DNA from: an uncultured Dehalococcoidia bacterium
GTDB taxonomy: Bacteria > Chloroflexota > Dehalococcoidia > SZUA-161
NCBI GenBank assembly: GCA_964574685.1
Contig: CAZNOI010000005.1
Coordinates: 1,493-65,492 of the forward strand
Direction: 5' to 3'
DNA length: 64,000 nt
Shown: positions 664-27,813 of the stretch, one piece after another
Layout: every line of letters begins with the position of its first letter
How positions within the stretch are numbered: position 1 is the stretch's first letter
Notes under the pieces: generated by a model
Told to the model about the DNA's origin: nothing
What the model saw: the letters and a program-made list of their open reading frames with translations, nothing else
Database searches by the model: none
Position numbers and translations under genes: made by a program

Positions 664-1371
664 TCAACATGCCTTGGAGTGACCGCTGCGCGTCGGTCTC
701 GCGAGGAAGTAGCCCGTGCCCGCCTTGGTGAGGATGATCTGTGGGTGGCTGGGGTTTGACTCCAGCTTCTCACGAAGACGCCTTATGTGTACTCTCAGGC
801 TCTCGATAGAGCCAGGGTAGTCTTCCCCCCATACCTCTTCTGCAAGAGCAGAGTGCGTGGCGACACGGCCCGCGTTTCTGATCAGGCGCTGGACTATGTG
901 TGCCTCGATAGCTGTGAGATTGACTTCCCTGTCCTCCAAGGTCAGTTGCCGTGTGGACGGATTGAAGCGAAGAGGGCCAAACTCCAGAGGCGTCTCCTCG
1001 GCGTACCCGGTCCTGTCCCGCATGCGTACGTTGATGCGTGCCAGCAGTTCCAGTTGGCCGCAGGGCTTGACAATGTAGTCGTCGGCGCCCCATTCAAGGC
1101 CCTTGACTATGTCGGCCTCGTCAGCCTTGACCGTCAGTATGATGATGGGGACTGAGGAGAACCGCCTTACTTCCTTTAGCACCTGGAACCCGCTTATGTC
1201 TGGCAGGCCGAGGTCGAGTACCATCATGTCCATATCCTCGGTGCTGGCCAGTTCGACACCCTTCTTGCCGAGATGGGTAGTAGTGATCTGGGCCTTGGGC
1301 CACCGGATCTGGATAGCAAGCGAGATGGACTCCACAATCTCGGGATCGTCTTCGACGATGAGTACCTTCAA
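664..1371 (-). CDS. OmpR/PhoB-family response regulator
   Basis: Receiver domain (VLIVEDD, VLDLGLPD, GADDYIVKP) plus winged-helix output (SLRVHIRRLREKLE...IILTKAGTGY). Confidence 0.95.
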   Translation of the reverse strand: MKVLIVEDDPEIVESISLAIQIRWPKAQITTTHLGKKGVELASTEDMDMMVLDLGLPDISGFQVLKEVRRFSSVPIIILTVKADEADIVKGLEWGADDYIVKPCGQLELLARINVRMRDRTGYAEETPLEFGPLRFNPSTRQLTLEDREVNLTAIEAHIVQRLIRNAGRVATHSALAEEVWGEDYPGSIESLRVHIRRLREKLESNPSHPQIILTKAGTGYFLARPTRSGHSKAC

Positions 1372-1616: not shown

Positions 1617-1901
1617 TCAGTTGCTATGGAAGGTCTGTCGATGGCCGGAACGGACGGTGTGTCTCTCCTCGGCGGTGCCGGTACGTAGCTGAAAAGTCGA
1701 CTTCTGGAGGAAATGCAGTACATCCTGTCGGCGGTACCTGCGGTCCCCTCTGGAGCCGATATGATAGCAGCGAAGCAGCCCCTTATCACTCCATCGCCTG
1801 ACTGTGGAGATACTGACATGAAGAAAGGCTGCTACCTGCCTGACGGTGAGCATAGCTTCTAGCTTTGTCTTCTCCATGGTCTGAGGCTGCGGCGGGGTCA
1901 C
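1617..1901 (-). CDS. Small helix-turn-helix DNA-binding protein (excisionase-like HTH_17/MerR-type)
   Basis: MLTVRQVAAFLHVSISTVRRWSDKG...GSRGDRRY pattern. Start may be the ATG at 1877. Confidence 0.8.
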   Translation of the reverse strand: MTPPQPQTMEKTKLEAMLTVRQVAAFLHVSISTVRRWSDKGLLRCYHIGSRGDRRYRRQDVLHFLQKSTFQLRTGTAEERHTVRSGHRQTFHSN

Positions 1902-18128: not shown

Positions 18129-18516
18129 CCTCGCGCGACTCCCTGGCCGAGACCACCTGCTTGAAGCGGTCTATGATGAACTGGCAGGCGGCGAAACCCT
18201 CCGGACGATGGATGGTGGCCACGGCGATCACCAGGGTGACGTCGCCCGCGGGCACCTTGCCGGTGCGATAGCATACCACTGTTTCCCTGATGCCCCACTT
18301 CCGCCGTGCCTCCTTGAGTATGGCCGAGAACCGCTCCTTCGCGGCATCCGCGTCGGCATCGTGCTCGAGCGAATGCACGGCCTTGCCGCCGGAGGTACCG
18401 CGCACCTTGCCGATGAAGCTGGTTATGGCCCCGCACTCCTTTCCCTCGACGAGTGAGATCACCTCGGCGGGATCAATTGGCTGGTCCGTAGTCCGGATGG
18501 TGTCCTGCCCGTTCAC
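18097..18516 (-). CDS. moaE: MoaE-like molybdopterin synthase large subunit (divergent)
   Basis: CGAITSFIGKVRG, YRTGKVPAGD, HRPEGFAACQFIIDRFK; the PxWKxE motif is missing. GTG start at 18516 with a GGAGG RBS. Confidence 0.7.
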   Translation of the reverse strand: MNGQDTIRTTDQPIDPAEVISLVEGKECGAITSFIGKVRGTSGGKAVHSLEHDADADAAKERFSAILKEARRKWGIRETVVCYRTGKVPAGDVTLVIAVATIHRPEGFAACQFIIDRFKQVVSARESREDGEYWVSAKT

Positions 18517-18602
18517 TGCGCCTCCTTCCACCTGCTATCTACAATTGGATTATAAGTGGTGGCAAATGCGGAAGTCCACCCGTCGTCGCCTCGCCCGGCC
18601 GG

Positions 18603-18694
18603 GCCGGGAGCATCGGCTCCCGGCTGAAATGGTCGGTTTAGCTGCGCTGCACCCACCCTACAGCTTGGATAGGCCGGGAGCATCCGCTCCCGGC
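18603..18694. repeat. Two copies of a 22-bp palindrome flanking a GTAG-type REP
   Basis: GCCGGGAGC-ATC(G/C)-GCTCCCGGC at 18603-18624 and 18673-18694. The REP GTAGGGTGGGTGCAGCGCAGCTAAACC lies between them on the minus strand, starting at 18661. Confidence 0.8.
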
Positions 18695-18746
18695 GGGGGA
18701 ATCGAATGGGGCGGACACGCCCGTTGCCGGTATCCTCCCATGAGAT

Positions 18747-18775
18747 TTGACCCTGTAACCGCAGCGAAATAGAAT
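18747..18775 (+). promoter_or_regulatory. Sigma70-type promoter
   Basis: TTGACC-17 bp-TAGAAT upstream of the carboxyltransferase at 18802. Confidence 0.6.
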
Positions 18776-18801
18776 GAGATTTTGATGCTCGTGGAGGTGT
18801 A

Positions 18802-20343
18802 ATGGAAGGCGACCGCATGAAGCGCAGGCTGGCCGAGCTCGACGGCATGAGGCGCAGGCTGGCACAGGGCGGCCCCTCCGAGGAGGTGCAGGCCCATCAT
18901 GCCAAAGGTAAGCTGACTGCGCGCGAGCGGATTCACCGGCTGCTCGACCCCGGCACCTTCACCGAGCTGGACATCTGGGGCACTCCGATGGAGATCGGCG
19001 CGATCAGCGACTACCTCAGGGCCCCCGCCGACGCCGTGGCCGTAGGGTACGGCGAGGTGCAGGGCCGTCCCGTGTTCGTCTGGGCGCAGGACGCGACCGT
19101 CATGCACGGCACCGTCGGCACCATGCACGCCCGCAAGATCGCGATGGTGATGGAGAAGGCGCTGCAGGCCCGCGTGCCCATCGTGGGCATGATCGACTCC
19201 GAAGGGCCGCGCGCGGGCGACGCGGTGCAGTACTATCGCTTCTACTCGCCGGAGGCCTTTGCCCGCTTCCAGACAATGGCCTCGGGCGTGATACCGCAGC
19301 TCGCGCTGGTGATGGGGCCGTGCGTCGGCGAGATGGCCGTTGTGGCCCGGCTGTCGGATTTCGTATTCATGGTCGACGGGACGAGCCATATGCATATCGC
19401 CGAGCTTCCCGGCCACATCGTGCCCGGCGAGGTGGGAAGCCCCGGCGTCCACTCGACGGACACGGGCTGCTGCGACTACCTGGCCGGGGACGACGAGGAG
19501 TGCCTGCAGCAGTGCCGTATGCTGCTGGGGTACCTCCCGTCGAGCAACCGCGAGGGGCCGCCCGTGCTGGATACGGGCGATCCCCCGGACAGGAGAGAGA
19601 GGGAGCTGCTGACGCTCGTGCCTTTCGACGCGAAGCAGGCCTTCAGCATGCACCGCGTCATCTCACTGGTCGTGGACAACGGCAGGCTGTTCGAGGTGAA
19701 GAAGGACTGGGCGAGGAACCTGATAACAGGCTTCGCCCGGCTCGCGGGCCAGACCGTGGGCATCGTGGCCAACAACCCCGAGGTGATGGGCGGGTCGCTG
19801 ACGCTGGACGCCGCGGACAAGATGGCTGGGTTCGTCCGCTTCTGCGACGCGTTCAACAGCCCGCTGGTCTGGCTGGCCGACACCCCCGCGTTCCTGCCAG
19901 CGGTGGACGAGGAGACCAGGGGGCTGATCCGGCACGGGTGCAAGCTCGTGTTCTCCAACGTGGAGTGCACCGTGCCCCAGATCACGGTGGCGATCAGGAA
20001 GCTGTACGGCGGCGGTGGGGTGGCCATGCCCGGAACAACGCTCGGCGGCGACGTCGATGTTGCGTGGCCGACGGTGGAGAGGGGGCTGATGGGTGGGGAG
20101 GGGGCGGTCTCGATCATCTACAAGCGCGAGCTTGCGGCCATCGAGGACGAGAAGGCCAGGGCGGCGCAGAGGTCGAGGCGCGTTGTGCAGATGAAGGACA
20201 AGTTCAAGTCACTGGAGAGGGAATGGGCGCAGGACTTCATCGACCCGCGCGACACGAGGCCGTATTTGATACGGGCGTTGCGAAATCTGTCCCACAGGCA
20301 GGAGCCGAGGCCCCGCCGCAAGCACGAGAACATGAGGCTGTAG
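18802..20343 (+). CDS. Acyl-CoA carboxylase carboxyltransferase (beta) subunit, paralog 1
   Basis: GKLTARERI..LLDPGTF, NLITGFARLAG, FVRFCDAFN.P, IIDP/FIDPRDTR-type ending. Confidence 0.92.
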   Translation: MEGDRMKRRLAELDGMRRRLAQGGPSEEVQAHHAKGKLTARERIHRLLDPGTFTELDIWGTPMEIGAISDYLRAPADAVAVGYGEVQGRPVFVWAQDATVMHGTVGTMHARKIAMVMEKALQARVPIVGMIDSEGPRAGDAVQYYRFYSPEAFARFQTMASGVIPQLALVMGPCVGEMAVVARLSDFVFMVDGTSHMHIAELPGHIVPGEVGSPGVHSTDTGCCDYLAGDDEECLQQCRMLLGYLPSSNREGPPVLDTGDPPDRRERELLTLVPFDAKQAFSMHRVISLVVDNGRLFEVKKDWARNLITGFARLAGQTVGIVANNPEVMGGSLTLDAADKMAGFVRFCDAFNSPLVWLADTPAFLPAVDEETRGLIRHGCKLVFSNVECTVPQITVAIRKLYGGGGVAMPGTTLGGDVDVAWPTVERGLMGGEGAVSIIYKRELAAIEDEKARAAQRSRRVVQMKDKFKSLEREWAQDFIDPRDTRPYLIRALRNLSHRQEPRPRRKHENMRL

Positions 20344-20366
20344 GGGGTGGGCTTCGCCCACCCTAC
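20340..20366. repeat. GTAG-type REP palindrome shared by two convergent stop codons
   Basis: GTAGGGGGTGGGCTTCGCCCACCCTAC; both terminal GTAGs contain a gene's TAG stop. Confidence 0.85.
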
Positions 20367-20743
20367 TCCAGGTCGACGAGCGCGTCGATGAGAAAAACGA
20401 TACCAAAGATGATGCTAGCGGAACCGAGGAATCTTATGAACAGTACATTCGCCCATGATGGGATTAGTCGCAGACGTACCAGCTTCTTAGACCTGTCGTC
20501 GTAGAACCCCGACCACCTGTATACTCTGAACAACCAGTTCCTAGAGGCCATTGCCTCGACCTCCTTCACCTCCAGCCAGCGGAAGAACCTTGGGGCCAGG
20601 CACGCGAAGATTAGCCCACCCACGATCGCTACCACCCCAACCCACCACTCGCTTGGGTGGATGGAGCCGTCCACAGGTTGAGCAGGACCAACCGTCGCGA
20701 TGTCTGCTACCACCTTTCCTATTCCAAACGTGAGGCAAATCAC
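20363..20743 (-). CDS. Small hypothetical membrane protein (two TM segments)
   Basis: Hydrophobic WWVGVVAIVGGLIFACL and VLFIRFLGSASIIFGIVFL; fills the space between REP elements. Start codon uncertain. Confidence 0.6.
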   Translation of the reverse strand: MICLTFGIGKVVADIATVGPAQPVDGSIHPSEWWVGVVAIVGGLIFACLAPRFFRWLEVKEVEAMASRNWLFRVYRWSGFYDDRSKKLVRLRLIPSWANVLFIRFLGSASIIFGIVFLIDALVDLE

Positions 20744-20795
20744 AGGCCGCTCTCCACGACTGTGCTCCTTTCGCTCTTCTGCCTACCACAGCATA

Positions 20796-20850
20796 GTAGG
20801 GTGGGTGCAGCGAAGCGGAACCCACCGTCTTAGTGTTGCCCCAGGCCTAC
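20796..20850. repeat. REP doublet, internally deleted copy
   Basis: GTAGGGTGGGTGCAGCGAAGCGGAACCCACC followed by GTCTTAGTGTTGCCCCAGGCCTAC. Confidence 0.85.
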
Positions 20851-21215
20851 AAGAAGAACCAGAGCCATATGTGAAAGAACAGGAAAGCTGCAGCCGTGAG
20901 TACAGATGATACAATAGCGGCTCGCCTTCCTGATATACTCTTCGCCATCCACCAAGCAAGGTAACCAACCGGCAGCATAGACAGGAACAGTAAGATACGC
21001 CACGACAACTCCTCGGCCTCGGACCATCCCTCGGAGAGGAATGTCCCATAGAAGCCCCACGCGAAAAACAACGCTTGGTACAGCGCTTGGGCCAGCAAGA
21101 AGCTGGCACCGATCGCAAGCAGTAATCGCAGTTTGCGCGGTATGCTGAGTCTAGGGAGGATGTGCCCTGGCCGGCGCATGTTTAGACCTCTGCTCCTCAT
21201 CCATCGCGCTTGCAT
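20847..21215 (-). CDS. Small hypothetical membrane protein (three TM segments)
   Basis: Three hydrophobic stretches; bounded by REP elements. Confidence 0.65.
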   Translation of the reverse strand: MQARWMRSRGLNMRRPGHILPRLSIPRKLRLLLAIGASFLLAQALYQALFFAWGFYGTFLSEGWSEAEELSWRILLFLSMLPVGYLAWWMAKSISGRRAAIVSSVLTAAAFLFFHIWLWFFL

Positions 21216-21218
21216 CCC

Positions 21219-21294
21219 GGTGGGGTAGGTGGAGCGGAGCGGAACCCACCACCGCCGCCTTGCCCCACGCCGTGGTGGGCTTCGCCCACCCTAC
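21219..21294. repeat. REP doublet (REPIN-like, about 75 bp)
   Basis: GGTGGGGTAGGTGGAGCGGAGCGGAACCCACC-ACCGCCGCCTTGCCCCACGCCGT-GGTGGGCTTCGCCCACCCTAC; near-identical to 21875-21949. Confidence 0.9.
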
Positions 21295-21309
21295 AATTCT
21301 TGCGCCCAT

Positions 21310-21873
21310 CTACGGGAAAGCTAGCATCTTGTCGGCGGCAGCCCTGAACGCCCGGTAATACCACCACAGGCCGGGAAACAACGGCATCATGGGGGTCTTC
21401 CGCGAGTAGTGGAGGGTGCGCGATGACACGTCGCTGACCACCGGGAACTCAGAACCTCGAAGCCAGTGCCACGGAGGACTGGTCGTGCGCATGTGCCGCT
21501 CGATTGCTGGGTCTATGCCGTTGACCACGATTGTGGGAAAACATACAAAGTTCTGGTAATGGCCCAGGAGTATGTCACGCATGGGAGAGTGGCGGGTGAA
21601 CCGGGCATACCTGAAGCTGATCCAGCCCAGATACTCCAGAACGCCTGTGGTCTCCCAGGGAACCGTCTGCCTTCGCGGAGTTGTGAACACGAAGAACGTG
21701 TTGACCCAGGTGAGCAGCTTCGGATGGAACCTGTCAGCGCGTGCGACTAGCGGGAAGACCTCACCATCGAACTCAACGTAGCTCTGAAGCAGGAAGCCGT
21801 TGGCCTCCAGTCTCCCGGCTACCGCCGATATGTACTCGTCTATCTTCTTGTCTTCATCCATGATGATCAGCAT
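21310..21873 (-). CDS. Hypothetical protein
   Basis: 187-aa ORF with globular-looking composition, between REP doublets; no family recognised. Confidence 0.7.
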   Translation of the reverse strand: MLIIMDEDKKIDEYISAVAGRLEANGFLLQSYVEFDGEVFPLVARADRFHPKLLTWVNTFFVFTTPRRQTVPWETTGVLEYLGWISFRYARFTRHSPMRDILLGHYQNFVCFPTIVVNGIDPAIERHMRTTSPPWHWLRGSEFPVVSDVSSRTLHYSRKTPMMPLFPGLWWYYRAFRAAADKMLAFP

Positions 21874-21874
21874 G

Positions 21875-21949
21875 GTAGGGTGGGTGAAGCGAAGCGGAAC
21901 CCACCACCTCCGCCTTGCCCCACGCCGTGGTGGGCTTCGCCCACCCTAC
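21875..21949. repeat. REP doublet (REPIN-like, 75 bp, most complete copy)
   Basis: GTAGGGTGGGTGAAGCGAAGCGGAACCCACC + 23-nt spacer + GGTGGGCTTCGCCCACCCTAC, with GTAG facing outward at both ends. Confidence 0.92.
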
Positions 21950-22698
21950 TCACAATCTATCTTATGAGCAATTAATCTCCCCTCTGTAACCCTGAAACTC
22001 AAGGTCATTCTTACCAAAGATGTAGGTGGATCAGCAACAGCAGTTAAATCAAATCGCCATCCTTCGGTTTGGCGAATAGCATCTGAAATGACTGTATTAT
22101 CATCTTCATTTAGCATCCATTCAGGCCCTAATTGGCTAGATTCATCGCCGTCAGCACGATAAAGATAGAACATGTCTGGATCAGTCTGCCCACAGGCAAA
22201 CAAATCAAATGTTATTGGCTCACCATACCTTACATTATGTGTTTGCTGAAATGGCCTGTTATTATCATGCAGACGATGCAAAACAATAGGGAAAGCCGTT
22301 GAAATCAATGGTGTGGGATTGGTGATTTGAACACATACATTTTTCGCACATGTATTCTGTTTTGTATTCTCAACGGTGACATACCATCTAGGCAACTCAT
22401 TGGTATCAACATCATCCAATCGCTGAAATGGGCCATTTATTTTCAATACCGTCGTTTGTTTCTCATAATTATTGACTCTCCTCTGCAACTTAATTCCAGC
22501 TATGAGAAATAATATAGCTGGTATAGCAATGAACCATATTAAGTCTGCTTTTGACAGCCACTTCGATAAGTCCAGGAATTGGGGAGTAGTAGGGTAGGCT
22601 GCTATTATCAACAAGTGCAGCACATCCCACCACCCAACGGCAGATTCCAACTTGCTCGCTGGTCGAATTGCCAACCAAATAAATTTGAGGATTGCCAT
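21946..22698 (-). CDS. Hypothetical low-GC protein with N-terminal membrane anchor
   Basis: 250-aa ORF; about 40 percent GC in a hand-counted 60-nt line, against a GC-rich background; two N-terminal hydrophobic helices. Confidence 0.75.
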   Translation of the reverse strand: MAILKFIWLAIRPASKLESAVGWWDVLHLLIIAAYPTTPQFLDLSKWLSKADLIWFIAIPAILFLIAGIKLQRRVNNYEKQTTVLKINGPFQRLDDVDTNELPRWYVTVENTKQNTCAKNVCVQITNPTPLISTAFPIVLHRLHDNNRPFQQTHNVRYGEPITFDLFACGQTDPDMFYLYRADGDESSQLGPEWMLNEDDNTVISDAIRQTEGWRFDLTAVADPPTSLVRMTLSFRVTEGRLIAHKIDCE

Positions 22699-22798
22699 GC
22701 AAGTACTCTATCAGGCTTTAGCCTTGCATCAAGTAGATAACCTCGCAATAATCCATAGAAAGCTAATGACCATTGTCGTCGACTCCCAACCACAAGAC

Positions 22799-22914
22799 GG
22801 TGGGTCGAGCGGAGCTCACCACCCCAGGTTGATCATCTGGTGAGAATGTCTCAGTATCGTATCAGAATCGCTGGGGCTTCTCAAGGGGTGGGTAGTTGGA
22901 GCTGCGCTGCCTAC
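22799..22914. repeat. Degenerate REP pair
   Basis: GGTGGGTCGAGCGGAGCTCACCACC at 22799 and GGTGGGTAGTTGGAGCTGCGCTGCCTAC ending at 22914. Confidence 0.65.
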
Positions 22915-24161
22915 GCGAAGTACTGCATGGTGGCGTCGGGCACCAGCGCCACCCTCGCGCGGTCGCCGTGCCGCCTGGTCAGCCTGTCCAGGACCTCGGG
23001 CCAGGTCTTGGCCCACACGATGGACTCGGGGGTCGCCAGCCAGTCGGCCCCGGCTATGTCGATGTGCGGGGTCAGGACTATGAAGTTATTGATATCACTG
23101 GGCGGCGGCGACGGCGGGCTCCACAGCCTGCCGCCCATCCCTTTCCCGGAGCTCCTCACCAGGTAGTGCGTCACCTGCCCCTCGGGGGCGTTGGCGATGA
23201 ACACGACGTCTACCCCGTTCTTGCTCAGCAGCGGCCCCAGCGTGGGCACCGCCAGCACAACCTCGCTGGCCTTGCTGTACGCGTTCAGGATGACGATGTC
23301 CGAGCCCTCGACGGCTTTCGTGGCGTAGACCTCCCTGGCGAGCCTGACGCCCCCGGCGTGGGCCTGCTCGTGAGCCCCCGCGAACAGCGCGGCAGTCTGA
23401 CCCCTGCCGTTCACCACTGTGTCGACCTTGAAGTCCAGCCCCGCCATGCGGGCCGCCTCCTCGATGTCCCGCCGCATGTAGTTGCTCTCGAATGTGGCCA
23501 GGCCGATTCCTGGGTCCCTGCCCTCGGTGAGCAGCCTCATCACCAGGTCCCTGTGGTGGGCGGCCATGCTGTCGATGGAGGCGACGCCGGGCAGGATGAT
23601 CTTGCCGCCGCCGCCGAACCCGGTCAGGGGGTGGGGCAGGATCGAGCCGAACCCGATCTTGAGGTCGCACGCCATGACCTCGCTGTTGATCGAGACAGGG
23701 GTGCCCAGGCTGGTCTCCCCGAGGTAGGTGCAGTTCTCGTAAGGGTTGTGGTTGTAGACGGGGAACCTGTCGAGCACCGCCTCGCCCAGCTTCTTGACGA
23801 AGTCGTGCCGCGTCAGCGCGCCGTGGGCCCCGACGGCGGCGATGAAGCGGACGCCCTCGTCCCTGACCCCGGCAGCCTCAAGCTCCTCCAGGACGTAAGG
23901 CAGTATGTCCGCGACGCGGGTGGGCCTGGTCATGTCGTCGAAGATGATGGCGATCTCGCGTTTGCCTCTGGCCAGCTCGCGGATCGGGCGCGTGCCGATG
24001 GGGTTGGCTACGGCCTGCCTGATCTCGTCCGGCGACAGCGGCGGCCTGTCGTGGCCCGCCATGCGGCAGACGCTCACCTCCCACGCGGCCGGGAACTGCA
24101 GATCGAGCTCGTCGTCCTGGTACCACGCCAGTTGAGGAACTCGAACGCTGATCGTGCTCAT
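22911..24161 (-). CDS. LarA-family nickel-pincer racemase/epimerase (DUF2088)
   Basis: IIFDDMTRPT, GAHG, NHNP, ILPHPLTGFGGGGKIILPGVA. Confidence 0.85.
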   Translation of the reverse strand: MSTISVRVPQLAWYQDDELDLQFPAAWEVSVCRMAGHDRPPLSPDEIRQAVANPIGTRPIRELARGKREIAIIFDDMTRPTRVADILPYVLEELEAAGVRDEGVRFIAAVGAHGALTRHDFVKKLGEAVLDRFPVYNHNPYENCTYLGETSLGTPVSINSEVMACDLKIGFGSILPHPLTGFGGGGKIILPGVASIDSMAAHHRDLVMRLLTEGRDPGIGLATFESNYMRRDIEEAARMAGLDFKVDTVVNGRGQTAALFAGAHEQAHAGGVRLAREVYATKAVEGSDIVILNAYSKASEVVLAVPTLGPLLSKNGVDVVFIANAPEGQVTHYLVRSSGKGMGGRLWSPPSPPPSDINNFIVLTPHIDIAGADWLATPESIVWAKTWPEVLDRLTRRHGDRARVALVPDATMQYFA

Positions 24162-24251
24162 GGGGGTCAGCTCTGTGGCCGTGCGTTCCGGGTGCGAGGA
24201 TTATGAGGCAACGTTGGGTTGGCGTCAACGCCCGCCCGGGGGGAGCAGAAT

Positions 24252-24282
24252 GGTGGGTTCCGCTGCGCTTCACCCACCTTAC
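24252..24282 (-). repeat. Single REP copy
   Basis: Minus strand reads GTAAGGTGGGTGAAGCGCAGCGGAACCCACC. Confidence 0.85.
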
Positions 24283-24390
24283 GCCTGGTGTTGGAGGGAG
24301 TCCCGGGGCAAGGGCACTTCGCCGAATCGTTCCTACAACGTTCGGGGCTGCGGGGGGCTAAGCCCTCGGAACGCACGCGGACGGGAGATT

Positions 24391-24427
24391 GGGGGCGCAT
24401 GGCCATGCACCCCTGCAGTTATCCTAC
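24391..24427 (-). repeat. Second-family REP-like palindrome
   Basis: GGGGCGCATGG/CCATGCACCCC hairpin with a GTAG 5' of it on the minus strand. Confidence 0.45.
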
Positions 24428-24467
24428 CCTGGGCCGGACCCTTTTTCGATCGATTCGGGACAGTGCT

Positions 24468-26063
24468 CTAGAGAGGCACCAGCGAGTGCTTCCGCCAGGG
24501 AGTGGTAGGCTCCAGCTTCTTGGACAGCCGCTCGAAGGTGTTGATCAGGACGGGCCGCGTCTTGCGCGGGTCGATGATGTCGTCAGCCCCCTGGACACCG
24601 GCCAGGTGGTAGGCCGTAGCGAACTGGTCATGGACCACCTGCATCTTGTCCTGGCGCACCTGCTCGGGGTTGTCGACGGCCGCGATCTCCGAGCCGTACA
24701 GTGCATCCGCTGAGCGCTCGTAGCCCTCGACCCGCATATCGGCGGTCGGCCAGGCATACACGGCGTCCACACCCATTCTCTCGGTCCCCATGAGCAGGCG
24801 GGCCGCTCCCCAGCACCGCCTTATGTATACGGTGATCATCGGGGTTGTCGCCTCACAGATGGCGAACACCGGCTTGGCGGCGTTGCGCTCCAGGCCGTCC
24901 CTGTTCTGCTCCTGCTCGACGTCGGGCAGGAAGCCGGGGCTGTCCACCAGGAAGACGATGGGTATGTTGTAGCAGTCGCAGAACCGGACAAACCTCGCCT
25001 GCTTGTCGCAGCTATACACAGTCAGGGCGCCCTCCTGCACCGCCGGGTTGTTGGCGACAATGCCGACCGGCTGCCCTGCGAGCCTGGCGAAGCCTATCAG
25101 CATGCTCGGCGCGTACAGTGCCTGAAGCTCGAAGAAATGGCCGTTGTCCACTACGGAGGCGATGACCTCGTGCATGTCGTACGGCTTCGATACGTCGGGC
25201 GGCACGATGTCCAGCAGCTTGTCGTCGGCGCGTCTCGGGTCGTCGCCCGTGTCCGCAAGGGGCGCCTTCTCCTTCCAGTTGGAAGGAAGGAAGCTCAGCA
25301 GCTCGCGGCACTTCTCGATGGCCTCCTCGTCGCTGTCCACCAGGATATCGTTGGAGCCGGTGGTCTCCGAATGGAGCAGCGCGCCGCCGATCTCCTCCTC
25401 GGTCACATCGACGAACGTGACAGCCTTGAGGATTGGCGGTGACGCCACCGACATGAAGGCGATGTTGCGGCGCATGATGACGAAGTCGGCCATAATCGGC
25501 GAGTACGCCGACCCCGCGTAGCAGGGGCCGAGCATCAGGCTGATGTGGGGCACGACTCCTGACATCAGCGGTGGGTAGTACATGAAGCCGCCGCCCCCGC
25601 CGACCGGGCTCCCCCTTACCGGGACCTTGAACCCGCCCGTGCCGAACAGGTCATGGATTCGAATCGCGCCGGAATCTACCATACCCACGAGGGGTATGCC
25701 TTCCTCCATCGCCTGCTCCATGGCGCGGGCAACTTTGGAGTTCTGGATGGTGGACTGCGTGCCGGCCAGCACTGTGAAGTCGTGGGCGTAGGAGTAGACC
25801 AGCCGCCCGTTGACCTCGCCGTAGCCTACTATGACCGAGTCCCTGGGCAACTCCCTCTGGTCGATGTCGAATCCGGTCTTCATCGGCTGCGTCCAGATGC
25901 CGATCTCTTGGAATGTGCCCGGATCGTACAGCTTCTGAATCCGCTCCCAGGCGGTGAGCTTCCCCTTGCCGTGCTGCTTCTCCGTTTCCGCAGGCCCGCC
26001 GCCTGGCTCCAGGCGCTTTCTGTTCTCCTCCAGCTTCTTGAGAAGGTCTCGCATATCAGCCAT
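24468..26063 (-). CDS. Acyl-CoA carboxylase carboxyltransferase subunit, paralog 2
   Basis: GKLTAWERI, GPCYAGSAYSP, FVRFCDCYNIP, IIDPRKTR. Confidence 0.92.
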   Translation of the reverse strand: MADMRDLLKKLEENRKRLEPGGGPAETEKQHGKGKLTAWERIQKLYDPGTFQEIGIWTQPMKTGFDIDQRELPRDSVIVGYGEVNGRLVYSYAHDFTVLAGTQSTIQNSKVARAMEQAMEEGIPLVGMVDSGAIRIHDLFGTGGFKVPVRGSPVGGGGGFMYYPPLMSGVVPHISLMLGPCYAGSAYSPIMADFVIMRRNIAFMSVASPPILKAVTFVDVTEEEIGGALLHSETTGSNDILVDSDEEAIEKCRELLSFLPSNWKEKAPLADTGDDPRRADDKLLDIVPPDVSKPYDMHEVIASVVDNGHFFELQALYAPSMLIGFARLAGQPVGIVANNPAVQEGALTVYSCDKQARFVRFCDCYNIPIVFLVDSPGFLPDVEQEQNRDGLERNAAKPVFAICEATTPMITVYIRRCWGAARLLMGTERMGVDAVYAWPTADMRVEGYERSADALYGSEIAAVDNPEQVRQDKMQVVHDQFATAYHLAGVQGADDIIDPRKTRPVLINTFERLSKKLEPTTPWRKHSLVPL

Positions 26064-26078: not shown

Positions 26079-27626
26079 CTACAGCCGGATGTTCTCGTGC
26101 TTTCTCTTGGGCCTGCCCTCGTCTCTGTGCTCCAGCGCCTTCAGCGCCTTGATAAGGAACGAGCGCGTATCTCTCGGATCGAGGAAGTCCTGCGCCCACT
26201 CGCGCTCCAGCGACTTGAACTTCTCCTGCATCTCGGCGACCCGTTTGGCCTGCTGCTCCTCTTTCTTCTTCGGGTCCTCGATCGCCGCGAACTCGCGCTT
26301 ATAGATGATCGAGACGGCGCCCTCCGCGCCCATCAGGCCTCGCTCGACTGTCGGCCAGGCCACGTCGAGGTCGCCGCCGAGGGTGGTACCGGGCATGCCG
26401 AGCTGGCCGCCGCCGTAAAGCTTGCGTATAGCGATGGTGATCTGCGGCACCGTGGCCTCGACGTTGGAGAATACCAGCTTGCAGCCGTGCCGGATCAGCC
26501 CCCTGGTCTCCTCGTCCACCGCGGGCAGGAACGCGGGCGTATCGGCGAGCCAGATGAGGGGGATGTTGAACGCGTCGCAGAAGCGGGCAAACCAGGCCAT
26601 CTTGTCCGCCGCGTCCAGCGTCAGCGAGCCGCCCATAGCCTTGGGATTGTTCGCGATGATGCCAGCCGTCTTGCCGTCCAGCCGGACGAAGCCTGTAATC
26701 AGGTTGTTCGCCCACTGCTTCTTGAGTTCGAGGAACTCGCCATTATCCGCGACGAGAGATATCAGCTTCTGCATATCGTAGGGCTTCATGGCGTCGAACG
26801 GAACGAGGCTCAGAAGCTCCTCTTCCCTGCGGTCAGGGTCGTCGCCGGTGTCCACGACAGGCAGGGTTTTCTTGTCGTTGCTGAGGGGCAGGTAGCTGAG
26901 CAACTGCCTGCAGGTCTCGATGCACTCCTCGTCACCCTTCGCCAGGAGGTCACAACATCCGGTCTTCTTGGAGTGAACCGAGGAGTCCCCGACCTCCATG
27001 GGGGTCTTGTCTTCAGGCGGCGGTGCAACGTGCATGAAGCTGGTCTTCCTGGTCATGAAGACGAAGTCTGACAACTGCGCCGTGATCGCGAGTTCGCCCG
27101 AGCAGGGGCCCATAATCATCGCGATCTGCGGAATGACGCCCGACGCCATGGTCTGGAAGTGGGCGAAGGACTCGGGAGAGTAGAAGCGATAGTACTGAAG
27201 GGCGTCCTCCACCCTGGCGCCCTGCGAGTCGATGATGCCCACGATGGGCACGCGCGCGTGAACGGCCTTCTCCATGACCATAGCGATCTTGCGGGAATGC
27301 ATGTTCGCCAGGGTACCGCCCATAACGGTCGCATCCTGAGCCCAGAGGAACACGGGCCGACCGTGGACTTCGCCGTATCCCACAGCCACGCCGTCCGCCG
27401 AGCCCTCCTGGTTGTCGATGGCGAAGCCTGTGGCCAGGGGAGTGCCCCATATGTCCAGTTCCGCGAAGGTGCCGGGGTCGAGCAGCCTGTCGATCCTCTC
27501 GCGGGCGGTGAGCTTGCCCTCCTCATGCTGCTTCTCGATGGCCTCGGGGCCGCCGCCCTGCCTCAGCATATTGCGAAGCTCATCGATCTCGGCGAGACGC
27601 TTCTGCATCAGCTCCAGGTCGTCCAT
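26079..27626 (-). CDS. Acyl-CoA carboxylase carboxyltransferase subunit, paralog 3 (close paralog of 18802..20343)
   Basis: Long shared stretches with paralog 1, e.g. ADTPAFLPAVDEETRGLIRHGCKLVFSNVE and FKSLEREWAQDF. Confidence 0.92.
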   Translation of the reverse strand: MDDLELMQKRLAEIDELRNMLRQGGGPEAIEKQHEEGKLTARERIDRLLDPGTFAELDIWGTPLATGFAIDNQEGSADGVAVGYGEVHGRPVFLWAQDATVMGGTLANMHSRKIAMVMEKAVHARVPIVGIIDSQGARVEDALQYYRFYSPESFAHFQTMASGVIPQIAMIMGPCSGELAITAQLSDFVFMTRKTSFMHVAPPPEDKTPMEVGDSSVHSKKTGCCDLLAKGDEECIETCRQLLSYLPLSNDKKTLPVVDTGDDPDRREEELLSLVPFDAMKPYDMQKLISLVADNGEFLELKKQWANNLITGFVRLDGKTAGIIANNPKAMGGSLTLDAADKMAWFARFCDAFNIPLIWLADTPAFLPAVDEETRGLIRHGCKLVFSNVEATVPQITIAIRKLYGGGQLGMPGTTLGGDLDVAWPTVERGLMGAEGAVSIIYKREFAAIEDPKKKEEQQAKRVAEMQEKFKSLEREWAQDFLDPRDTRSFLIKALKALEHRDEGRPKRKHENIRL

Positions 27627-27710: not shown

Positions 27711-27813
27711 GACGACCCCTGCGCGCACGCGCGCTGGTTTGACGCAATGCCCGCGACAGGTCACCTGGCCAGCCGGGACGACCCCTGCGCGCACGCGCGC
27801 TGGTTTGACGCAA
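27711..27813. repeat. Two identical 37-bp direct repeats separated by 29 bp
   Basis: GACGACCCCTGCGCGCACGCGCGCTGGTTTGACGCAA at 27711-27747 and 27777-27813. Confidence 0.95.

What the first reader, a model, noticed from the sequence alone, without database searches (positions are those of the whole stretch)
18631..24427. Cassette-like array of orphan genes separated by GTAG REP doublets, with no integrase
Seen: at least seven related palindromic elements, best copy the 75-bp GTAGGGTGGGTGAAGCGAAGCGGAACCCACC-N23-GGTGGGCTTCGCCCACCCTAC, are confined to about 6 kb; I saw none elsewhere in the window. They alternate one-for-one with four co-oriented unrelated ORFs (20363, 20847, 21310, 21946) plus a LarA gene. 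Several of the ORFs have almost no leader and they differ in GC content. Established: GTAG-tagged hairpins and their inverted doublets (REPINs) are substrates of RAYT/TnpA-REP HUH nucleases, while one-gene-per-repeat arrays are the hallmark of integrons, which use attC sites and a tyrosine integrase. Inference: an integron-like gene capture array built on REP/HUH chemistry, acting in trans.
Basis: partly seen in the sequence, partly recalled or inferred. Interest (0 to 1): 0.75.

Follow-up and report, generated by a model that had tools for sequence, protein, structure and literature searches.

The report
Ordinary REP hairpins colonising variable islet
The repeats are real but are ordinary GTAG-type REP hairpins of the kind copied by RAYT transposases; they have piled up in a small strain-specific patch of foreign genes, and nothing shows that they capture genes as an integron does.

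Summary
Eight clear repeat arms and two decayed ones lie in 18631-24282, and none lie elsewhere in the 64 kb. They sit in every intergenic gap around four minus-strand ORFs that are orphans or nearly so. GC falls from about 65% to 39-58% there.

The interpretation does not hold. The arms are canonical GTAG REPs: GTAG, then a GGTGGGT/ACCCACC stem. The long arm has a GNAGC-GNAGC-GNAAC loop and the short arm a 3-nt loop. The same 31-mer occurs beside ordinary genes in more than 100 loci from many phyla. In two of those loci it directly flanks a Y1_Tnp/RAYT gene 47% identical to E. coli RayT. The 75-bp doublets have GTAG outside and a 23-nt spacer, which is the family's usual dimer (REPIN) form. 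The ORFs lie outside these units.

No attC boxes are present, and no integrase or RAYT was found in the window. Close relatives (86-93% nt identity in the flanks) carry different cargo at the same spot, without intact REPs: a DndB-like gene plus a Dam-type methyltransferase, or one 213-aa ORF. Homologues of the one ORF with clear relatives sit elsewhere without REPs.

Best reading: a hypervariable islet between two convergent core genes of a probable Dehalococcoidia MAG, recently colonised by REP/REPIN copies. Interest is low.

The parts
18631..18661 (-). Long-arm REP with a decayed 3' half of the stem (GTAGGGTGGGTGCAGCGCAGCTAAACCGACC), in the MoaE / carboxyltransferase-1 intergenic region
   Evidence: nhmmer E 1.3e-6
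18802..20343 (+). Carboxyltransferase CT1, the conserved left flank. Its TAG stop (20341-20343) is the TAG of a REP GTAG head; relatives use TGA there.
   Evidence: Pfam Carboxyl_trans 1.5e-123; junction comparison
20340..20366 (.). Short-arm REP, a double-headed palindrome GTAGGGGGTGGGC-TTC-GCCCACCCTAC. It supplies the TAG stops of both CT1 and ORF1.
   Evidence: E 8e-6
20344..22910 (.). Strain-specific islet (GC 39-58%) between the stop codons of the convergent genes CT1 and LarA. Relatives hold unrelated DNA here.
20363..20743 (-). ORF1, 126 aa (the database gene call is 86 aa). A small membrane protein with only weak relatives.
20796..20850 (+). Decayed doublet: an intact long arm (20796-20826), a spacer relic, and a CTAC relic of the short arm that gives ORF2 its TAG stop
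   Evidence: family D1, 61% to the doublets; E 2e-10
20847..21215 (-). ORF2, 122 aa, hydrophobic. It has no homologue and is not a called gene in the collection, so its reality is uncertain.
21225..21294 (.). REP doublet: a long arm with a damaged head (+), a 23-nt spacer and a short arm (-), with GTAG outside. It is 93% identical to the next doublet, spacer included.
21310..21873 (-). ORF3, 187 aa, soluble. A true orphan, with a coding-like GC1/2/3 pattern.
21875..21949 (.). Intact 75-bp REP doublet (REPIN-like): a 31-nt long arm (+), a 23-nt spacer and a 21-nt short arm (-). Its short-arm GTAG gives ORF4 its TAG stop.
   Evidence: (DNA fold -24.4 kcal/mol, z -3.9)
21946..22698 (-). ORF4, 250 aa, 41% GC. 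An N-terminal membrane helix plus a beta-sandwich; it belongs to a rare family (8 homologues) of unknown function.
22796..22826 (+). Decayed long arm lacking the GTAG head
   Evidence: 0 of 500 shuffles reach the alignment score; weak
22883..22914 (-). Probable decayed long arm with its 5' stem deleted. Its GTAG contains LarA's TAG stop.
   Evidence: 8 of 500 shuffles; junction comparison
22911..24161 (-). LarA-family gene (Lar_N domain). It is conserved at 89-90% aa identity in the relatives, so it is the right flank of the islet and not a cassette.
24252..24282 (-). Long-arm REP between LarA and carboxyltransferase CT2. Relatives carry an 8-kb, five-gene segment at this junction.
   Evidence: E 2e-9

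Best explanation
The repeats are canonical GTAG-headed REPs: single arms and 'GTAG-outside' doublets (REPINs) of the class that flanks RAYT (Y1 HUH, IS200-like) genes.

They are non-autonomous hairpin elements. A RAYT encoded elsewhere in the genome is inferred to cut and rejoin them as single-stranded DNA. The replicated unit is the roughly 75-bp doublet, not the gene next to it.

In this probable Dehalococcoidia genome they have recently multiplied locally into every intergenic gap of a small, strain-specific islet of foreign genes and its immediate neighbours. The islet lies between the 3' ends of two convergent core genes, a position where insertions do little harm. In sister strains that position holds other cargo.

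As by-products, the REP heads supply TAG stop codons and 3'-end hairpins to the adjacent genes.

What is shown: REP identity, doublet architecture, RAYT linkage in other genomes, islet variability, and absence of attC. What is inferred: a RAYT acting in trans in this genome, and local transposition as the cause of the cluster.
For: 1. Sequence class. The arm consists of GTAG, a 7-bp stem and either a GNAGC-GNAGC-GNAAC loop or a 3-nt loop. Table 1 of PMC2817692 lists REPs that flank rayt genes, and both arms resemble them:
- Enterobacter sakazakii: GTAGGGtGGGTAAGCGcAGCGCACCCaCC.
- Haemophilus influenzae: GTAGGGTGGGCTTcAGCCCACC.

2. RAYT linkage. A phmmer search with E. coli RayT against all their ORFs hit two:
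- L005 1243-1782, flanked by long arms at 1181-1211(+) and 1801-1831(-), with GTAG outside.
- L040 3459-3995, with a short arm plus a long arm on one side and a short arm on the other.
- Both pass the Pfam Y1_Tnp cut-off. The L005 protein is 47% identical to RayT.

3. Dimer form. Of the close REP pairs in those loci, 45 of 62 have GTAG outside, with gaps mostly 20-28 nt. This matches the window's 23-nt doublets. The two full doublets are 93% identical including the spacer, with no homology beyond them.

4. Neighbouring genes. REP neighbours elsewhere are ordinary genes: EF-Tu, IMPDH, ABC transporters, short-chain dehydrogenases (SDRs), response regulators, and a mannose-1-P guanylyltransferase.

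5. Published behaviour. PMC3733652 reports that GTAG ends provide TAG stops, that REPs between convergent genes (conv-REPs) abut both 3' ends, that HH dimers and clusters occur, and that Thermomicrobium roseum (Chloroflexi) REPs cluster in blocks at a few loci.

6. Islet variability without REPs:
- L123, L213-L216, L219 and L220 carry a DndB-like gene plus a D12 methyltransferase.
- L122 and L218 carry a single 213-aa ORF.

7. ORF4 homologues in L202-L204 have no REP beside them.
Against: - The density is odd for a REP family: eight to ten arms in 5.7 kb and none in the other 58 kb. The syntenic 33 kb of the closest relative has only one, and 804 kb of related contigs have about seven. Local proliferation is assumed, not shown.
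- No RAYT was seen in the window. The rest of the 134.8-kb contig and of the genome could not be searched.
- The three cargo variants all lie exactly between REP relics that abut the two stop codons. The ORFs also differ in GC. A REP-targeted insertion process would predict both, although both also follow trivially from how tightly the conv-REPs are packed against the stop codons.
Confidence: 0.8

Rival explanations
1. REP/HUH-based gene capture. Each ORF was inserted or mobilised as a REP-bounded unit by a RAYT acting in trans, producing an integron-like array.
For: - There is one ORF per REP site, the ORFs are orphan or rare, they are co-oriented, and their GC differs.
- Cargo differs among sister strains exactly between REP relics at the two stop codons.
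- RAYT genes themselves are REP-bounded single genes.
- L053 carries a duplicated block of about 540 bp at 100% identity, offset by 724 bp, containing a REP and a 98-aa ORF.
Against: - For ORF1, ORF3 and ORF4 the GTAG heads face the ORF. That is the opposite of the RAYT and doublet arrangement (GTAG outside), so the ORFs lie outside the unit known to be processed.
- ORF2 is flanked by direct, not inverted, arms.
- ORF4 homologues elsewhere lack REPs.
- The relatives' cargo has no internal or intact REPs.
- In other genomes the same REPs follow housekeeping genes.
- No case was found of the same gene in two REP-bounded contexts.
Confidence: 0.06
2. A classical integron cassette array without an integrase (a CALIN), with the doublets acting as attC sites.
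For: The doublets are imperfect palindromes of 70-75 bp, ORF starts lie very close to them, and the ORFs are orphans on one strand.
Against: - There is no RYYYAAC...GTTRRRY pair anywhere in 18600-24450.
- The doublet ends read GTAGGGT...ACCCTAC, and each arm is itself a hairpin.
- No Phage_integrase hit was found among 30 window ORFs scanned.
- The same arms occur singly beside ordinary genes and flank Y1_Tnp genes.
Confidence: 0.01
3. The islet arrived by horizontal transfer already carrying its REPs, from a REP-rich donor. The cluster would then reflect the donor's density rather than proliferation in this genome.
For: - The islet has foreign GC.
- The islet's best arm is identical to the 31-mer found in Desulfobacterales, Hydrogenedentota and Chloroflexi MAGs.
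- Relatives have very few REPs.
Against: - REPs also sit outside the islet beside conserved genes, at 18631-18661 and 24252-24282.
- Relatives keep decayed REP relics at the same junctions and one good copy nearby, so the family is native to the lineage.
- The four ORFs differ in GC by up to 17 points, which argues against a single donor segment.
Confidence: 0.12

Closest known systems
GTAG-type REPs and REPINs with their RAYT (a 'REPtron'); E. coli RayT/YafM-type Y1 HUH nuclease
   Same: - GTAG head, 7-bp GC-rich stem and AAGCG-NAGCG-type loop.
- GTAG-outside dimers with spacers of about 20-28 nt.
- Extragenic position at gene 3' ends, with TAG stops supplied by the head.
- The same arms flank Y1_Tnp genes in L005 and L040.
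   Different: - No RAYT is visible in the window.
- The copies are confined to one 5.7-kb cluster rather than dispersed.
- The host is a probable Dehalococcoidia MAG, not a proteobacterium.
Clustered GTAG-23 REPs of Thermomicrobium roseum (Chloroflexi), described in PMC3733652
   Same: - REPs concentrated in blocks at a few loci in a Chloroflexi genome.
- REPs associated with a second small GC-rich palindrome.
   Different: - The stem and loop sequence family differs.
- The companion palindrome here is CCGGGAGC-N4-5-GCTCCCGG, and it is seen around only some copies.
E. coli BIMEs (mosaic REP clusters)
   Same: REPs in alternating orientation with conserved linkers, lying in intergenic 3' regions. 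This rests on established knowledge and PMC2817692.
   Different: The window's cluster is interleaved with whole genes rather than being one compact mosaic.
Integron cassette arrays and CALINs (attC sites plus the IntI tyrosine recombinase)
   Same: One short, often orphan, promoter-poor ORF per palindromic repeat, with co-orientation and strain-to-strain variation in cargo.
   Different: - No attC R'/R'' boxes and no IntI.
- The repeat polarity is not fixed.
- The repeat is a REP bound by HUH enzymes.
- The cargo variants in relatives lack the repeat.
IS200/IS605 elements and their MITE derivatives (PATEs)
   Same: Subterminal hairpins recognised by a Y1 HUH transposase, and single-strand 'peel and paste' chemistry (established knowledge).
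   Different: There is no tnpA or tnpB between the arms. The arms carry the REP-specific GTAG head, and the associated enzyme is RAYT-type.

Membership tests
REP (GTAG super-family) | Imperfect palindrome of 20-40 nt able to form a stem-loop | tested here: met
   The 7-bp stem is GGTGGGT/ACCCACC. Three A-T for G-C exchanges occur at stem pair 6/30 among the 72 copies.
REP (GTAG super-family) | Unpaired GTAG tetranucleotide at one end | tested here: met
   Present in all eight clear arms, once as GTAA and once damaged.
REP (GTAG super-family) | Extragenic, mostly at 3' ends of genes between convergent or co-directional ORFs | tested here: met
   All copies are intergenic. Five of six adjacent genes end in a REP-derived TAG.
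REP (GTAG super-family) | Many dispersed copies in the genome | tested here: inconclusive
   Eight to ten arms, all within 5.7 kb of a 64-kb window. The rest of the genome is not available. Relatives show about 1 per 30-100 kb.
REP-RAYT system (REPtron) | A RAYT (Y1_Tnp with HUH and catalytic Tyr) flanked by the same REPs | tested here: met
   Met in other genomes only, namely L005 and L040. In the window's own genome this is not testable: there is no RayT hit in the window.
REPIN | Two inverted REPs plus a spacer, replicated as one unit | tested here: met
   21219-21294 and 21874-21949 are 93% identical over 76 nt including the spacer, with no homology outside. A third, decayed copy lies at 20795-20870.
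Integron / CALIN | attC sites with R'' RYYYAAC and R' GTTRRRY boxes | tested here: not met
   No such pair spaced 40-130 nt apart in 18600-24450 on either strand.
Integron / CALIN | IntI tyrosine recombinase next to the array | tested here: not met
   No Phage_integrase hit among 30 window ORFs scanned with Pfam. The scan did not cover every ORF.
Integron / CALIN | Constant polarity of the recombination site relative to the cassette ORFs | tested here: not met
   ORF1, ORF3 and ORF4 lie between inward-facing GTAG heads. ORF2 lies between direct long arms. In L053 and L115 the arm precedes the ORF on the same strand.
IS200/IS605 insertion sequence | tnpA (and/or tnpB) between the subterminal hairpins | tested here: not met
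   The ORFs between the arms have no Y1_Tnp or other Pfam hit, and phmmer with RayT finds nothing in the window.

The most novel reading that the evidence does not exclude
REP doublets packed against the stop codons of convergent genes act as preferred entry points for foreign DNA. On this reading a RAYT, or hairpin-directed recombination, inserts single genes between REP arms and duplicates the arm each time. REP-ORF-REP arrays such as this one would then be a slow, HUH-based analogue of integron cassette arrays.
Probability: 0.06. Interest if true: 0.8.

Novelty: new member of a known kind. Interest (0 to 1): 0.2.

Why it matters
As it stands, it matters little. It adds a Dehalococcoidia example to the known GTAG REP/REPIN class, and it documents a small hypervariable islet whose alternative cargo in sister strains looks defence-like.

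Two points have modest value:
- This REP arm, loop included, is nearly invariant from Enterobacteria-type REPs to Dehalococcoidia, Planctomycetota, Desulfobacterales and Nitrospirales. That sits uneasily with the view that REPIN-RAYT systems are lineage-specific and vertically inherited.
- REP bursts can be very local. That makes loci like this convenient for testing whether REPINs transpose preferentially nearby.

Only if REP arms proved to be the insertion points for the cargo would this become important.

Tried and rejected
- Rfam search of 18400-24600: only two chance-level hits.
- Literature search for the repeat sequence: only unrelated G-quadruplex and primer hits.
- All-against-all clustering of ORFs from 121 REP-bearing loci, to find a protein that travels with the repeat: only common families came up, namely response regulators, SDRs and ABC transporters.
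- PADLOC scan of the four ORFs: nothing.
- AlphaFold model of ORF4 (pLDDT 67) and a PDB fold search: no significant match. The best hit was an archaellin at E 6.5e-3 and TM 0.33-0.44.
- Exact look-ups of CT1 and ORF3 in assemblies found nothing. Logan contigs from SRR7048220 are 100% identical pieces of the window that break inside REPs, so they give no evidence of shuffling.
- The 23-nt doublet spacer was not found in any other fetched locus.
- The terminator scan shows no T-tract after the REPs, so they are not classical intrinsic terminators.
- More distant LarA loci (72% identity or less) are not syntenic, so the ancestral empty site could not be reconstructed.

Full report

Yes. It consists of a 31-nt long arm GTAGGGTGGGTGAAGCGAAGCGGAACCCACC on the plus strand, a 23-nt spacer, and a 21-nt short arm GTAGGGTGGGCGAAGCCCACC on the minus strand.

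I built profile HMMs from 72 long arms and 10 short arms collected in other genomes and searched the window:
- Five long arms are significant: 21875-21905, 20796-20826, 24252-24282, 18635-18661 and 21228-21250, with E from 7e-11 to 4e-5.
- Three short arms are significant: 20346-20366, 21274-21294 and 21929-21949, each at E 8e-6.
- Nothing better than E about 2 lies outside 18.6-24.3 kb.

Two more decayed arms lie at 22796-22826 and 22883-22914. A third doublet at 20796-20850 has lost most of its short arm.

The arms therefore fill seven consecutive intergenic gaps out of about 55 in the window. Random placement would give this with probability about 2e-7.

GC drops from about 65% to 39-58% across 20350-22900. 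The four minus-strand ORFs have no Pfam or PADLOC hit:
- ORF3 has no homologue among 5.8e9 proteins.
- ORF2 has none and is not even a called gene.
- ORF1 has three weak relatives in an exhaustive HMMER search.
- ORF4 has eight homologues.

The GC1/2/3 patterns look like coding sequence for all four ORFs.

**2. What the repeats are**

Each arm is a GTAG head followed by a 7-bp stem, GGTGGGT/ACCCACC. The loop is either GAA (short arm) or the 5-nt-periodic G-N-AGC G-N-AGC G-N-AAC (long arm).

The taxa include:
- Dehalococcoidia and other Chloroflexota
- Planctomycetota
- Desulfobacterales, including the complete genome of Desulfonema magnum
- Nitrospirales
- Hydrogenedentota
- Verrucomicrobia
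- Nitrosovibrio, Gallionella, Stenotrophobium and Bradyrhizobium

Among the 72 distinct long arms, the loop positions that the search pattern did not fix are 88-99% conserved. Only positions 13, 18 and 23 vary freely. Stem pair 6/30 shows three G-C to A-T double changes.

No protein family travels with the repeat. The neighbouring genes are ordinary: EF-Tu, IMPDH, ABC ATPases, short-chain dehydrogenases (SDRs), response regulators, a mannose-1-P guanylyltransferase and a metallo-beta-lactamase-fold hydrolase.

A phmmer search with E. coli RayT against every ORF of the fetched loci found two strong hits:
- L005 1243-1782 (E 4e-47) is bracketed by long arms at 1181-1211(+) and 1801-1831(-), with GTAG outside.
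- L040 3459-3995 (E 1e-49) has a short arm plus a long arm on one side and a short arm on the other.

Both pass the Pfam Y1_Tnp cut-off. The L005 protein is 47% identical to RayT over its full length, with the HUH and Tyr motifs conserved.

Nunvar et al. 2010 (PMC2817692, Table 1) list REPs that flank rayt genes, and the window's two arm types resemble them:
- Enterobacter sakazakii: GTAGGGtGGGTAAGCGcAGCGCACCCaCC.
- Haemophilus influenzae: GTAGGGTGGGCTTcAGCCCACC.

The elements are therefore canonical RAYT-class GTAG REPs.

**3. The doublets are the usual dimer form**

In the genome loci, 45 of 62 close REP pairs have GTAG outside, mostly with gaps of 20-28 nt. That is the window's architecture.

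The two full doublets are 93% identical across arms and spacer, and the similarity stops at their ends. This is what a REPIN copied as a unit looks like, rather than a segmental duplication.

Di Nocera et al. 2013 (PMC3733652) describe every other feature seen here:
- HH, TT and HT dimers, and clusters.
- REPs between convergent genes pressed against both 3' ends.
- GTAG ends that provide the TAG stop of flanking ORFs.
- A Chloroflexi genome, Thermomicrobium roseum, whose REPs are clustered in blocks at a few loci and nested in another small palindrome.

In the window, CT1, ORF1, ORF2, ORF4 and LarA all end in a REP-derived TAG.

**4. Is it an integron-like capture array?**

The tests I could run say no.

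- **attC.** No RYYYAAC...GTTRRRY pair exists in 18600-24450. The doublet ends read GTAGGGT...ACCCTAC.
- **Recombinase.** No Phage_integrase or Y1_Tnp hit appears among 30 window ORFs scanned. The window is otherwise ordinary metabolism: thiolase, acyl-CoA dehydrogenase, three carboxyltransferases, radical SAM enzymes and ABC transporters.
- **Polarity.** ORF1, ORF3 and ORF4 sit between GTAG heads that face the ORF. That is the opposite of the RAYT and doublet arrangement, so the genes lie outside the unit that RAYT-type enzymes are known to recognise. ORF2 sits between direct arms. In L053 and L115 the arm precedes ORFs on the same strand.
- **Mobility of units.** ORF4's homologues in L202, L203 and L204 are solitary genes between unrelated housekeeping genes, with no REP beside them.
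- **Sister strains.** Two metagenome lineages share the flanks at 86-93% nucleotide identity but differ completely between the stop codons of LarA and CT1.
  - One variant has a DndB-like gene plus a D12 (Dam-type) methyltransferase. It is seen in L123, L213-L216, L219 and L220, which come from several samples.
  - The other has a single 213-aa ORF, seen in L122 and L218.
  - Neither has intact REPs inside.

Cargo turnover at this site therefore does not need REPs.

**5. What remains unexplained**

The density is unusual. The window has eight to ten arms in 5.7 kb. The syntenic 33 kb of the closest relative has one, and 804 kb of related contigs have about seven.

Homology between the three variants stops exactly at the two stop codons. 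Decayed REP relics sit at those junctions in the relatives too, for example CTGTGAGGCGGTGGTGGGCAACCC after CT1 in L122. The ancestral intergenic gap was therefore probably a convergent REP pair, and all cargo now lies between its arms.

That fits a REP-targeted insertion process. It also follows trivially from the arms abutting both stop codons, because any insertion that spares the genes must land between them.

I put the capture reading at about 6%. The idea that the islet arrived with its REPs from a REP-rich donor gets about 12%. The REPs outside the islet, the relics in relatives and the 17-point GC spread among the ORFs all argue against a single donor segment.

**6. Organism and context**

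The window is part of a 134,768-bp NCBI contig. Proteins at least 90% identical to its acyl-CoA dehydrogenase are annotated as coming from Dehalococcoidia MAGs.

Logan contigs from SRR7048220 are 100% identical pieces of the window and break inside REP arms.

In the relatives, an 8-kb, five-gene segment separates CT2 from LarA. It includes a hybrid kinase-regulator, an aldehyde:ferredoxin oxidoreductase and an alcohol dehydrogenase. The window has only 320 bp and a REP there. The whole CT2-CT1 interval is therefore plastic in this lineage.

**7. Verdict**

The REP/REPIN assignment is correct. The integron-like mechanism is not supported.

This is a new member of a known kind: RAYT-class GTAG REPs that have locally colonised a strain-variable islet. 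Interest is 0.2.

Noticed in passing
window 18604-18623 and 18674-18693; L122/L123 2123-2139, 6574-6589, 9826-9841, 9859-9873; L123 15110-15125: A second small palindrome family, CCGGGAGC-N4-5-GCTCCCGG. Two copies bracket the REP at 18631-18661. Four to five copies lie in the close relatives, often next to REPs or REP relics, and none in the other 203 fetched loci. This recalls the small palindromes that host the Thermomicrobium roseum REPs.
   Followed up: partly
L002-L121 (genome scan), e.g. L025 2504-2578, L053, L086, L091: The 31-nt long arm is nearly identical across many phyla and across genomes of 40-65% GC. Its loop is three 5-nt units (GNAGC GNAGC GNAAC) in which only the N positions vary. 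This degree of cross-phylum conservation is unexpected if REPIN-RAYT systems are lineage-specific and vertically inherited.
   Followed up: partly
L123 11289-13279 (also L213 7630-9620, L215, L219): In the most frequently sampled sister lineage, the same intergenic site holds a DndB-like (DpdB/DndB) gene plus a D12 N6-adenine DNA methyltransferase. This is a defence-like two-gene module of about 53% GC.
   Followed up: partly
window 24162-24467 versus L123 2009-10001: Relatives carry an 8-kb, five-gene segment between carboxyltransferase CT2 and LarA: a GAF-HisKA-receiver-Trans_reg_C hybrid, an unknown 609-aa protein, an aldehyde:ferredoxin oxidoreductase and a Zn alcohol dehydrogenase. The window has 320 bp with a single REP there. 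I did not determine which state is ancestral.
   Followed up: no
window 18858-20343 versus 26079-27567: Carboxyltransferase paralogues CT1 and CT3 form a large inverted repeat (71-76% nt identity over about 1.5 kb) that brackets the whole variable interval. A third paralogue, CT2, lies at 24468-26063.
   Followed up: no
window 27711-27747 and 27777-27813: Two perfect 37-nt direct repeats (GACGACCCCTGCGCGCACGCGCGCTGGTTTGACGCAA), 66 bp apart start to start. They lie in the divergent promoter region between CT3 and the acyl-CoA dehydrogenase gene, and each contains a GCGCGC-AC-GCGCGC palindrome. They are probably paired operator sites.
   Followed up: no
window 21946-22698; alignment A1 (P0001-P0009): The ORF4 family is modular. 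A conserved N-terminal membrane segment (…WLAIRPxSKLESAVGWWDVLN…) is joined to different C-terminal domains in P0006-P0009. The C-terminal beta-sandwich of ORF4 occurs with other N-termini in P0003-P0005. ORF4 and its homologues in L202 and L203 have a TAGAAT/TAGAGT -10-like box 5-7 nt before the ATG, which suggests leaderless mRNAs.
   Followed up: partly
L053 1150-1690 and 1874-2414: In a Desulfobacterales MAG, a block of about 540 bp containing a 98-aa ORF and a long-arm REP is present twice at 100% identity, offset by 724 bp. This is an example of a REP cluster growing by local duplication of a REP together with its flanking gene.
   Followed up: partly
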